A DNA stretch of 17,907 nt from a virus (lineage: Duplodnaviria; Heunggongvirae; Uroviricota; Caudoviricetes): IMG/VR virus record IMGVR_UViG_3300008453_000586; one strand, written 5' to 3'. The notes beneath the pieces were generated by a model. That model was not told the DNA's origin. It ran no database searches and worked only from the letters and a program-made list of their open reading frames with translations. Below, in pieces: positions 15,275 through 15,406 of this stretch (position 1 is the first letter of the stretch; the number at the start of each line of letters is the position of its first letter). Made by a program: the position numbers and the translations under genes.

Positions 15275-15406
15275 AAGATTATTTCAGCAACCAAAAACAA
15301 TTAGCCTCTTAAGCTCGGGGTCGTAGGTTCGAGTCCTACCCACCCAACTAGGTTTAAACATCGGGTGGTAGCTCAGGGGTAGAGCACGTATGAAAAAATT
15401 AATCTT
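15275..15406 (+). ncRNA. Circularly permuted tRNA-Lys(CTT)-like RNA (Y-RNA-like topology)
   Basis: Order is nt 29-73 (15303-15347), 14-nt linker, nt 1-28 (15362-15388), enclosed by AAGATTA/TAATCTT; rejoining gives CGAGC-CTCTTAA-GCTCG. Confidence 0.75.

What the first reader, a model, noticed from the sequence alone, without database searches (positions are those of the whole stretch)
15275..15406. Circularly permuted tRNA-Lys(CTT) inside a closing stem (bacterial Y-RNA-like topology)
Seen: the 3' part of a tRNA (AGC-CTCTTAA-GCTCG, variable loop, T arm, CCACCCA-A; 15303-15347) comes before the 5' part (CGGGTGG, D arm, A-CG; 15362-15388). A 14-nt loop closes the acceptor stem. Joining nt 28 to nt 29 restores a perfect CGAGC/GCTCG anticodon stem with CTT. 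The ends pair as AAGATTA/TAATCTT. Established: permuted tRNA genes are known from some algae and archaea; bacterial YrlA Y RNAs bound by Ro60/Rsr have a tRNA-like domain with a closed acceptor-like stem. Inference: either a spliced permuted tRNA, a Y RNA, or a nuclease decoy with no free CCA end that displays a Lys anticodon (the PrrC anticodon nuclease targets tRNA-Lys(UUU)).
Basis: partly seen in the sequence, partly recalled or inferred. Interest (0 to 1): 0.85.

Follow-up and report, generated by a model that had tools for sequence, protein, structure and literature searches.

The report
Phage tRNA-shaped Y-like RNA
The back-to-front tRNA-Lys is real and conserved, but it is most likely not a tRNA gene: it is a small phage RNA that shows a sealed tRNA look-alike on a conserved "handle", probably the RNA partner of a Ro60-like ring protein that related phages of this kind encode.

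Summary
15275-15406 encodes a complete tRNA body written 3' half first. A 14-nt loop seals the acceptor stem, and a 7-bp stem (AAGATTA/TAATCTT) joins the two ends. Joining nt 28 to nt 29 in silico gives an ARAGORN tRNA-Lys(CTT).

The element is syntenic in related IMG/VR phage contigs and covaries in all six helices: 97.5% of cells paired, 19 of 28 pairs changed on both sides, slid controls 28-44%.

It is not YrlA. It scores 37.8 bits against a cut-off of 69, has no GNCGAA motif and no TROVE-family gene nearby. It belongs to a large, mainly viral RNA family with a covarying terminal stem, UUCAGCAA after the 5' arm and GUU after the 3' arm.

Contigs with this pattern carry a DUF2828 gene in 12 of 13 near-complete records, against 2 of 13 tRNA-bearing controls. 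That protein's model matches Ro60 structures. A 306-kb relative encodes it; for the window's own genome only an unchecked first-reader note says so.

A spliced, decoding tRNA is unlikely. Relatives seal the acceptor with tetraloops and swap CUU for CCU on one body, and I found no BHB motif or splicing endonuclease. Binding, processing and function are untested.

This scan has reported the same RNA family before on other phage DNA.

The parts
15275..15281 (+). Handle, 5' arm (AAGATTA)
   Evidence: Pairs 7/7 with 15400-15406. In alignment A1, 5 of its 7 pairs change on both sides and 100% of cells pair. In viral contigs, 92 of 122 hits have such a stem, against 41 +/- 5 when arms are swapped among loci.
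15282..15290 (+). U plus the UUCAGCAA motif (15283-15290), probably single-stranded
   Evidence: Invariant in all syntenic relatives. The same motif follows a stem at 5944 and 9874 in this window. RNAalifold leaves it unpaired.
15291..15302 (+). A-rich 5' linker (CCAAAAACAATT)
   Evidence: Length is kept but the sequence varies among relatives.
15303..15317 (+). Anticodon-like arm, tRNA nt 29-43: AGC / CTCTTAA (anticodon CUU) / GCTCG
   Evidence: The local 3-bp stem covaries (AGC/GCT to GCT/AGC in L003/L004; all 3 pairs change on both sides). Loop positions 32, 33, 36, 37 and 38 are invariant and positions 34-35 vary in the subfamily.
15318..15322 (+). Variable loop GGGTC (nt 44-48)
   Evidence: Read directly from the sequence. 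C48 can pair with G15 of the D loop.
15323..15339 (+). T arm GTAGG-TTCGAGT-CCTAC (nt 49-65)
   Evidence: 3 of 5 pairs change on both sides and 100% of cells pair. The Rfam YrlA alignment places it on the model's T arm.
15340..15368 (+). Sealed acceptor stem: CCACCCA (66-72), A73, a 14-nt loop and CGGGTGG (1-7); pair 1-72 is C.A
   Evidence: 6 of 7 pairs change on both sides. In L001/L003/L004/L007 the whole stem is replaced by CTAGTTTTTC-CTAG-GAAAAGCAAG.
15369..15386 (+). U8 A9, the D arm GCTC-AGGGGTA-GAGC, and A26
   Evidence: 100% of cells pair and one pair changes on both sides. It matches the D arm of the YrlA model.
15387..15388 (+). nt 27-28 (CG), which pair in trans with 15316-15317 (nt 42-43) to complete the anticodon stem
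   Evidence: 100% of cells pair. Pair 28:42 is G-C in 13 sequences and U-A in 2 (L106, L114).
15389..15399 (+). A-rich 3' linker (TATGAAAAAAT)
   Evidence: Conserved as an A-rich stretch of varying length.
15400..15409 (+). Handle, 3' arm (TAATCTT) plus the conserved GTT tail
   Evidence: It pairs with 15275-15281. GTT or TGTT follows the 3' arm in most family members.

Best explanation
15275-15409 encodes a non-coding RNA of about 135 nt, made as part of the phage's third tRNA array. It is a complete tRNA-shaped body: anticodon arm with CUU, T arm, D arm, and an acceptor stem sealed by a loop. The body is opened in the 5' strand of the anticodon stem between nt 28 and 29. Its two ends run through A-rich linkers into a 'handle' made of a 7-bp stem, UUCAGCAA after the 5' arm and GUU after the 3' arm.

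Shown here:
- The structure is conserved and covaries.
- The handle defines a large, mainly viral RNA family with interchangeable tRNA-like cargo.
- Phage contigs with this pattern nearly always encode a DUF2828 protein whose predicted fold is that of Ro60.

Inferred:
- The handle docks on the Ro60-like ring, as Y RNA stems dock on Ro60.
- The sealed tRNA look-alike is presented as a tether or bait for proteins that recognise tRNA shape. These could be the phage's own tRNA-repair enzymes, which are encoded around the arrays, or host tRNA nucleases.
- The RNA does not decode.
For: Structure:
- Searches show six helices, all covarying.
- Unpermuting the sequence gives a tRNA.

Synteny:
- Six related IMG/VR contigs carry the element at the same place (R1 scores 124-137 bits).

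Family:
- At least 120 viral loci match TTCAGCAA-N20-50-T loop, and 61 distinct elements parse as handle / T arm / sealed acceptor / D arm / handle.
- 92 of 122 have a closing stem, against 41 +/- 5 with swapped arms. In cellular genomes the figure is chance-level, 27 of 121.
- Two more handle modules lie in this window (5936-6020 and 9855-9880). Two minimal ones lie in the 306-kb relative, 5.5-6.7 kb after its DUF2828 gene.

Partner:
- DUF2828 is present in 30 of 49 handle contigs and 12 of 13 that are at least 90% complete.
- In tRNA-bearing control contigs it is present in 6 of 47 and 2 of 13.
- Relatives G001 and G002 encode it.
- Its AlphaFold model has pLDDT 92.4. The best 13 PDB matches are all Ro60/TROVE over the full length, with E 1e-10 to 1e-6 and TM 0.34-0.58 normalised to the query.

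Against decoding:
- L001/L007 and L003/L004 share an identical T arm, acceptor and D arm but carry CCU and CUU respectively.
- A sister subfamily carries Ser, Leu and Tyr anticodons on one short-variable-arm body.
Against: - No binding, transcript-end or processing data exist.
- In this clade the DUF2828 gene is 40-55 kb from the RNA, not adjacent. For the window's own genome it rests on an unchecked first-reader note, because the genome is not held.
Large phages carry both more often: 2 of the 7 large, near-complete controls also have DUF2828.
- The stretch after the DUF2828 gene in the relative has CCAGCAA but no convincing handle fold.
- The handle lacks the Ro60-binding features known from Y RNAs.
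- The window's version has a 7-position acceptor and a 14-nt loop, like M. smegmatis YrlA, which is cut by RNase P and receives CCA (PMC4201824). Some processing at the acceptor therefore cannot be excluded.
Confidence: 0.6

Rival explanations
1. It is a true permuted or split tRNA-Lys(CUU) gene. RNase P and a 3' nuclease open the acceptor loop and CCA is added. The two pieces then either stay together through the handle or are joined at 28/29 by the phage's RNA ligase, giving a decoding tRNA.
For: - The cloverleaf is complete, with U33, A37 and A73, and ARAGORN calls the unpermuted form tRNA-Lys(ctt).
- The trans pairs 27-28/42-43 covary.
- The window and L002 have a 7-position acceptor with a 14-15-nt loop. 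M. smegmatis YrlA, with a 7-bp acceptor, is cut by RNase P and receives CCA in vivo (PMC4201824).
- An RlaP RNA-repair gene lies in the window.
- The relatives' 21-kb array loci list Lys(UUU) but neither Lys(CUU) nor Arg(CCU).
Against: - Pair 1-72 is a C.A mismatch.
- L001/L003/L004/L007 seal the stem as a 10-bp helix with a CTAG tetraloop, L106 has a 4-nt loop, and L112 extends it by about 10 bp.
- The anticodon changes from CUU to CCU on the same body.
- There is no bulge-helix-bulge at the ends, only a 7-bp stem and 11-21-nt linkers.
- No PF01974 endonuclease is found in four related contigs.
- The same handle carries cargo that cannot decode, such as the T arm alone at 5936-6020 and the 53-72-nt minimal RNAs.
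Confidence: 0.1
2. It is a decoy or sensor for host anticodon nucleases. The sealed body offers an anticodon loop to enzymes such as PrrC or RloC. Cleavage either spares the real tRNAs or signals attack. This reading can hold with or without the Ro60-like partner.
For: - The loop framework C32, U33, A37, A38 is invariant, and only positions 34-36 vary across 16 near-identical RNAs of a sister subfamily, which carry 7 different triplets. In the window's subfamily positions 34-35 vary.
- Triplets seen in the window's relatives include Lys (CUU, UUU), Arg (CCU) and Asn (GUU). From my own knowledge, these are the tRNA classes targeted by PrrC, colicin D and colicin E5.
- tRNA-repair genes flank the arrays (PMC7824862).
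Against: - Variation confined to 34-36 fits simple lack of constraint on three exposed bases just as well.
- The acceptor stem is as variable as the anticodon.
- Many family members have no anticodon-like arm at all.
- No nuclease was tested or identified.
Confidence: 0.15
3. The handle is a processing, stability or packaging signal that has nothing to do with DUF2828. It co-occurs with that gene only because both are traits of large phages with tRNA arrays.
For: - The DUF2828 gene is 40-55 kb from this RNA.
- Both DUF2828-positive controls among the near-complete records are 350-360-kb phages.
- In other phages, handle RNAs directly follow tRNA 3' ends (...CCA-GTTTTA-stem), which suits punctuation by tRNA-processing enzymes.
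Against: - Among near-complete contigs of 100 kb or more, 12 of 12 handle contigs have a DUF2828 match at E <= 0.001 (one of them below the family's cut-off), against 2 of 7 controls.
- In several loci the handle RNA lies directly in front of a gene whose product begins like DUF2828 (L021, L028, L071, read by eye).
- The protein has the fold of an RNA-binding ring.
Confidence: 0.1
4. It is a dead remnant of two tandem tRNA genes that lost their outer halves, with no function.
For: The R1 model also scores the junction of two tandem tRNA-Lys genes in L002 at 46.5 bits over positions 29-110. A tandem pair is therefore a plausible ancestor.
Against: - Compensatory changes occur in all six helices.
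- The element holds a conserved position in contigs whose neighbouring protein is only 69-81% identical.
- The handle is conserved and is not part of any tRNA.
- The body is only about 71% identical to the phage tRNA-Lys genes, no closer than to unrelated tRNAs.
Confidence: 0.03

Closest known systems
YrlA, the tRNA-like Y RNA bound by bacterial and mycobacteriophage Ro60/Rsr (Rfam RF02553; Chen et al. 2014, PMC4201824)
   Same: - Same order: T arm, acceptor-like stem closed by a loop, D arm.
- The RNA ends are paired in a terminal stem.
- It occurs in phages and is associated with a Ro60-fold protein and RNA-repair genes.
- It is the best non-tRNA Rfam match (37.8 bits, E 6.6e-7).
   Different: - The score is below the gathering score of 69.
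- There is no GNCGAAN0-1G motif; the motif here is UUCAGCAA.
- It keeps a full anticodon arm, which YrlA lacks.
- The candidate partner is DUF2828 (PF11443), not a TROVE-family protein, and its gene is not adjacent.
Circularly permuted tRNA genes of the red alga Cyanidioschyzon merolae and some green algae and archaea (named from my own knowledge, not tested here)
   Same: The 3' half precedes the 5' half in one unit. A short linker joins the acceptor ends. Unpermuting restores a canonical cloverleaf.
   Different: - Those pre-tRNAs pair their ends into a bulge-helix-bulge that the splicing endonuclease cuts, and they pass through a circular intermediate.
- Here the ends form a plain 7-bp stem with long linkers and a conserved UUCAGCAA.
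- No endonuclease gene was found.
- Relatives seal the acceptor with tetraloops.
Class I RNAs of dictyostelid social amoebae (PMC7919456; search pattern GTTGRCCTTACAGCAA ... GTCAACTG in PMC5054030)
   Same: A short covarying stem joins the 5' and 3' ends. A conserved motif ending in CAGCAA lies directly after the 5' arm. The RNAs start with AAG and end with CUGU, where here the start is AAG and the end is ...CUU-GUU, and CCUGUU in sister subfamilies. The interior is variable.
   Different: Class I RNAs are 42-65 nt, eukaryotic and without tRNA-like cargo. Their known binder is the RRM protein Rnp1A. Homology is not shown; the likeness covers about 10 nt plus the architecture.
Ro60 of Thermus phage phiLo and animal or bacterial Ro60 (PDB 9l5y, 9kop, 1yvp, 2i91, 2nvo)
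   Same: These are the best structural matches of the related phage's DUF2828 protein: a helical-repeat ring plus a vWA domain, aligned over the full length. They are also the weak top hits by sequence profile (E 0.03-0.2).
   Different: Sequence identity is 12-19%. The Pfam TROVE model does not match. RNA binding by DUF2828 has not been tested.
Two-piece tmRNA from permuted ssrA genes (named from my own knowledge, not tested here)
   Same: It is a bacterial precedent for a tRNA-like domain whose gene is circularly permuted.
   Different: There the acceptor end is opened and aminoacylated and the linker is excised. Here the acceptor is the sealed end.

Membership tests
YrlA (Rfam RF02553) | Reaches the family's gathering score | tested here: not met
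   37.8 bits against a gathering score of 69. No match at gathering threshold.
YrlA (Rfam RF02553) | tRNA-like domain in the order T arm, closed acceptor-like stem, D arm | tested here: met
   The alignment to the model covers these arms with high posterior probability, and the helices covary.
YrlA (Rfam RF02553) | Conserved GNCGAAN0-1G motif in the Ro60-binding module (PMC4201824) | tested here: not met
   No G-N-CGAA occurs anywhere in 15275-15411. The conserved motif is UUCAGCAA.
YrlA (Rfam RF02553) | Encoded beside a TROVE-domain Ro60/Rsr gene | tested here: not met
   No PF05731 match in four related contigs and no such ORF in the window. A DUF2828 gene lies about 55 kb away in the 306-kb relative.
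YrlA (Rfam RF02553) | Bound by Ro60 in vivo | not testable with these tools
   Needs immunoprecipitation or an in vitro binding assay.
Permuted tRNA gene (algal/archaeal type) | 3' half upstream of the 5' half, and the unpermuted sequence is a canonical tRNA | tested here: met
   ARAGORN calls the joined halves tRNA-Lys(ctt) over positions 1-75.
Permuted tRNA gene (algal/archaeal type) | The ends fold into a bulge-helix-bulge for the splicing endonuclease | tested here: not met
   The ends form a 7-bp stem separated from nt 28/29 by unpaired stretches of 21 and 11 nt. There is no 3-nt bulge / 4-bp helix / 3-nt bulge.
Permuted tRNA gene (algal/archaeal type) | tRNA splicing endonuclease available | tested here: not met
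   No PF01974 match in G001-G004. The host genome is unknown.
Permuted tRNA gene (algal/archaeal type) | Acceptor linker removable to give free 5' and NCCA 3' ends in all orthologues | tested here: inconclusive
   The window and L002 have a 14-15-nt loop. L001/L003/L004/L007 have a 10-bp helix with a tetraloop, L106 a 4-nt loop and L112 a long extension. Cleavage itself was not tested.
Permuted tRNA gene (algal/archaeal type) | Mature or circular RNA with a 28-29 junction | tested here: inconclusive
   Only assembled contigs from four metatranscriptome runs could be laid, and these cannot show RNA ends.
Phage stem + CAGCAA 'handle' RNAs (informal family; not in Rfam or in the papers searched) | Covarying terminal stem of 6-9 bp joining the 5' and 3' ends | tested here: met
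   7 bp, with 5 of 7 pairs changed on both sides. 59 distinct arms across viral loci, with 92 of 122 closed against 41 for swapped arms.
Phage stem + CAGCAA 'handle' RNAs (informal family; not in Rfam or in the papers searched) | UUCAGCAA within 0-2 nt of the 5' arm and GUU/UGUU after the 3' arm | tested here: met
   15283-15290 and 15407-15409. The tails most often seen are TGTT and GTTA.
Phage stem + CAGCAA 'handle' RNAs (informal family; not in Rfam or in the papers searched) | DUF2828 (Ro60-fold) gene in the same genome | tested here: inconclusive
   Met in relatives G001 and G002 and in 12 of 13 near-complete handle contigs. The window's own genome is not held; only a first-reader note reports the gene about 40.7 kb upstream.
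Dictyostelid Class I RNAs | Short terminal stem, 11-nt motif (CCUUACAGCAA) after the 5' arm, 3' CUGU, length 42-65 nt | tested here: inconclusive
   The stem, the CAGCAA core and the AAG...CU(U)GU ends are shared. The first five motif letters, the size, the cargo and the kingdom differ. Common descent was not tested.

The most novel reading that the evidence does not exclude
Large phages make a set of RNAs that mount a full, sealed tRNA body on a Ro60-like (DUF2828) ring through one handle. The anticodon triplet varies freely from one RNA to the next. The particle works as bait for host anticodon nucleases or as a template platform for the phage's tRNA-repair enzymes. The same stem-plus-CAGCAA handle in dictyostelid Class I RNAs would then mark an undescribed Ro60-like RNA-protein particle shared by phages and amoebae.
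Probability: 0.15. Interest if true: 0.9.

Novelty: new variant of a known kind. Interest (0 to 1): 0.68.

Why it matters
Ro60 with Y RNAs is a conserved RNA-surveillance particle whose bacterial tRNA-like partner, YrlA, still has no known role. Here the tRNA mimicry is complete, with an anticodon arm as well as the T, D and acceptor parts.

The RNA hangs on a different handle and co-occurs with a different, very large protein family. DUF2828 has more than 6,600 cluster representatives at E <= 0.001, and I found no functional literature on it.

The RNAs sit in phage tRNA arrays among tRNA-repair genes. The system is therefore a tractable entry to two questions:
- What are tRNA-shaped Y RNAs for?
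- How do phages defend their translation apparatus?

For annotation, such elements should not be reported as permuted or broken tRNA genes.

Tried and rejected
- **Own genome.** It is not held. An exact-protein look-up found only 6.7-kb and 3.6-kb contigs, so I could not walk to the reported DUF2828 gene.
- **Junction pattern.** An exact pattern across the acceptor junction found nothing in IMG/VR. Relatives were reached through a neighbouring protein instead.
- **TROVE.** The Pfam search of four related contigs found nothing.
- **RNA evidence.**
  - Four freshwater metatranscriptome runs hold small parts of the stretch, but only as assembled contigs.
  - One 372-nt contig of a roughly 93%-identical relative runs colinearly over 15062-15441. 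This shows presence in an RNA library, not transcription.
  - No 15388-to-15303 joint was among the joints listed. Most pieces laid over the tRNA-like parts belong to other organisms' tRNAs.
  - This gives no verdict on expression or processing.
- **Stretch after the DUF2828 gene in the relative** (L009, about 2550-2640). It contains CCAGCAA, but the fold is not handle-like and not significant (z -0.98). Its only Rfam hit there is a sub-threshold Phe_leader match.
- **Parent tRNA.** The unpermuted body is about 71% identical to the phage tRNA-Lys(UUU) genes, no closer than to unrelated tRNAs.
- **Cultured phages.** blastn found only T-arm-sized matches. One 52% match in Rhizobium phage B1VFA lies over 'tRNA-Asn | tRNA-OTHER'.
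- **Bacterial and archaeal genomes.** The pattern scan gave chance-level closing stems (27 of 121) and one convincing element, in L332, a Ruminococcus MAG.
- **Single-sequence folding.** Not significant (z -1.45), and its lowest-energy fold pairs part of UUCAGCAA with the 3' linker. Relatives do not conserve that pairing.
- **Dimeric-tRNA artefact.** I rejected it as the cause of the YrlA hit, because there is no D arm upstream of 15303 and no anticodon or T arm between 15389 and the next tRNA at 15418.
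Full report
**What is in the sequence**

The window is a tRNA-rich stretch. ARAGORN tRNAs and Rfam. Earlier notes of this scan attribute it to a large uncultivated phage. Two ORFs in the window carry a type-9-secretion sorting domain, which points to a Bacteroidota host.

At 15275-15409 the plus strand reads, in order:
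- AAGATTA
- U, then UUCAGCAA
- a 12-nt A-rich linker
- AGC-CTCTTAA-GCTCG
- GGGTC
- the T arm GTAGG-TTCGAGT-CCTAC
- CCACCCA, then A
- a 14-nt loop
- CGGGTGG
- TA
- the D arm GCTC-AGGGGTA-GAGC
- A, then CG
- an 11-nt A-rich linker
- TAATCTT, then GTT

The D loop has GG and the T loop has TTCGA. U8, A14 and G15 with C48 are in place, so an L-shaped fold is plausible from the sequence alone.

Neither ARAGORN nor the Rfam tRNA model sees a tRNA here. When I join 15362-15388 to 15303-15347 in a script, ARAGORN calls tRNA-Lys(ctt).

**Is it more than chance?**

The best non-tRNA Rfam match is YrlA, at 37.8 bits and E 6.6e-7 for the 401 nt searched. That is far below the gathering score of 69.

A neighbouring 377-aa protein led to seven IMG/VR loci at 55-81% identity. 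Six of them carry the element at the same place, in front of the same odd tRNA-like gene. The differences between them are informative:
- L001, L003, L004 and L007 replace the whole acceptor stem with CTAGTTTTTC-CTAG-GAAAAGCAAG.
- L003 and L004 turn the local anticodon stem from AGC/GCT into GCT/AGC.
- L001 and L007 have CCU in place of CUU.

I then aligned 15 members of this subfamily with MAFFT, with no structural guidance. The six-helix structure pairs 97.5% of cells, against 76.6 +/- 1.3% in shuffles and 28-44% when partners are slid. 19 of 28 pairs change on both sides. The two trans pairs that complete the anticodon stem (27-28 with 42-43) are always paired, and one of them covaries: G-C in 13 sequences and U-A in 2. 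RNAalifold on the same alignment finds the handle stem, the anticodon-like hairpin, the T arm, the sealed acceptor and the D arm on its own. The single-sequence folding energy is not significant.

The RNA structure is therefore real and under selection. A decayed tRNA pair is excluded.

**The handle and its family**

The conserved part that is not tRNA is the terminal stem plus UUCAGCAA and the GUU tail. Earlier notes of this scan describe a 'stem plus CAGCAA handle' family beside Ro60-like genes. I treated those notes as leads and tested them.

- 92 of 122 distinct hits have a perfect 7-bp closing stem within 120 nt. With arms swapped among loci the figure is 41 +/- 5. There are 59 different arms.
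- The same pattern in bacterial and archaeal genomes gives 27 of 121, which is about chance level, and one convincing element. The family is mainly viral.
- 61 distinct elements parse as handle, optional anticodon-like hairpin, T arm, sealed acceptor, D arm, handle.
- In many loci the RNA directly follows a tRNA 3' end (...CCA-GTTTTA-stem).

This window holds two more handle modules:
- 5936-6020 has a 9-bp stem, UCAGCAA and a T-arm-only cargo (R1 28.4 bits).
- 9855-9880 has the handle closed as a hairpin, inserted between nt 26 and 27 of an otherwise normal tRNA-Asp(GUC). This is the same architecture opened at the acceptor instead of at the handle.

The 306-kb relative has two minimal handle RNAs of 53 and 72 nt, 5.5-6.7 kb after its DUF2828 gene.

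**The candidate protein partner**

- No TROVE-family gene is found in four related contigs.
- A DUF2828 gene (484 aa) is present in the two largest of them.
- A first-reader note places a 478-aa DUF2828-like gene 40.7 kb upstream in the window's own genome. I could not check this, because the genome is not held and the contigs on record are short.
- Among contigs found only by the RNA pattern, 30 of 49 encode DUF2828, and 12 of the 13 that are at least 90% complete do.
- Among control contigs found by an ordinary tRNA pattern, 6 of 47 and 2 of 13 do.
- Restricted to near-complete contigs of 100 kb or more, the figures are 12 of 12 (one below the family's cut-off) against 2 of 7. Genome size is a partial confounder.
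- The protein family is very large: 6,643 cluster representatives at E <= 0.001.
- An AlphaFold model built on 60 diverse members is confident, with pLDDT 92.4 and pTM 0.91.
- Its 13 best PDB matches are all Ro60 or TROVE proteins aligned over the full length. They include the Ro60 of Thermus phage phiLo, with E 1.6e-10 to 1.6e-6 and TM 0.34-0.58 normalised to the query.
- By sequence profile the same proteins are only weak top hits.

**Why it is probably not a decoding tRNA**

1. The ends do not form the bulge-helix-bulge that permuted tRNA genes use, and no splicing endonuclease gene is found.
2. The acceptor is a sealed hairpin of variable form: a 14-nt loop here, a 10-bp helix with a tetraloop in the closest clade, a 4-nt loop in L106 and a long extension in L112.
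3. The anticodon differs (CUU against CCU) between RNAs whose T arm, acceptor and D arm are identical.
4. In a sister subfamily of 16 near-identical RNAs, the stem and loop positions 32, 33, 37 and 38 are invariant, and only 34-36 vary. The triplets are GAA, GUA, GGA, ACG, AUG, UAG and GCA. That places Ser, Leu and Tyr triplets on a body with a short variable arm. From established knowledge, bacterial SerRS, LeuRS and TyrRS would not accept such a body.
5. The same handle carries cargo that cannot decode at all.

What remains open is cleavage in the acceptor loop. M. smegmatis YrlA, which has a 7-bp acceptor, is cut by RNase P and receives CCA (PMC4201824), and the window's form resembles it.

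**RNA data**

Four freshwater metatranscriptome runs could be laid only as contigs. One 372-nt contig of a roughly 93%-identical relative covers the element colinearly. Nothing can be said about RNA ends, strand or level.

**Comparison with what is known**

- The RNA works like YrlA in topology and context, but it fails three of the four testable YrlA criteria.
- The idea of a phage Ro60/TROVE protein with a tRNA-like partner is in print (PMC4201824; PMC7824862).
- I found no paper on DUF2828 function, none on permuted tRNAs in phages beyond passing mentions, and no Rfam family for the handle.
- The handle resembles dictyostelid Class I RNAs. Those have a short terminal stem, a motif ending in CAGCAA right after the 5' arm (pattern GTTGRCCTTACAGCAA ... 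GTCAACTG), a start of AAG and an end of CUGU. Whether this reflects common descent is unknown.

**Verdict**

The reading 'Y-RNA-like tRNA mimic' is the best of the three offered, but the RNA belongs to a distinct handle family whose likely partner is a DUF2828 Ro60-like protein.

I rate it a new variant of a known kind. This scan has reported the same family on other phage DNA before. Binding and function are inferred, not shown.

Noticed in passing
window 9816-9937: A tRNA-Asp(GUC) with normal open acceptor ends carries the same handle as a closed hairpin (ATAACCT-GACA-AGGTTAT, C, TTCAGCA) inserted between nt 26 and 27. It is the unpermuted counterpart of the finding. In other phages (L017, L113, L125, L129, L130) similar handle-bearing tRNA-like genes end in NCCA.
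   Followed up: partly
window 5936-6020: A third handle RNA: a 9-bp stem AAGATAGTT/AACTATCTT, then UCAGCAA, with a cargo that holds only a T-arm-like hairpin (GTGG-TTCAATC-CCAC). R1 scores it 28.4 bits, E 0.008. The syntenic copy in the 306-kb relative is at G001 238995-239087.
   Followed up: partly
viral loci L018, L026, L029, L030, L033, L034, L048, L064, L067, L079, L083, L090, L099, L102, L130, L131: A sister subfamily (handle GGTTCTT/GAGAACC) has near-identical bodies. Within the anticodon-like arm only loop positions 34-36 vary, giving 7 different triplets in 16 RNAs. The acceptor stem also varies, with compensating changes.
   Followed up: partly
window 15418-15494: Directly after the element lies a tRNA-like gene whose anticodon loop is replaced by a 10-nt loop (GGTGGTTCGCTGCC region). 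ARAGORN gives no valid anticodon. It is conserved next to the element in L001, L003, L004 and L007, and replaced by a different insert in L002.
   Followed up: no
window 8769-8921: A T loop at 8901 and a CAT anticodon-like loop belong to a tRNA-like sequence that neither ARAGORN nor Rfam calls at threshold.
   Followed up: no
window 432-1655 and 10730-11545: An RlaP-family RNA-repair nucleotidyltransferase (PF10127, E 2.7e-22) opens the window. A 271-aa catalytic-domain-only GluRS/GlnRS-like protein (PF00749, E 2.8e-45) follows the Glu/Asp/Ala tRNA block.
   Followed up: no
G001 (contig of L001) 195423-195494 and 196478-196530: Two minimal handle RNAs of 72 and 53 nt have no tRNA-like cargo. 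The second lies directly after a tRNA-Met and before a terminator, 5.5-6.7 kb downstream of the DUF2828 gene.
   Followed up: partly
window 15144-15417 (RNA-library contig of run X20): A 178-nt contig joins 15362-15417 to 15144-15219 and then, after 7 other letters, to 15265 onward. This suggests a tandem or rearranged copy in a relative, or an assembly artefact.
   Followed up: no
L332 (Ruminococcus MAG contig), minus strand, element starts at reverse-complement position ~3232: This is the only convincing handle-plus-permuted-tRNA element among 121 pattern hits in bacterial and archaeal genome assemblies. It is possibly a prophage.
   Followed up: no
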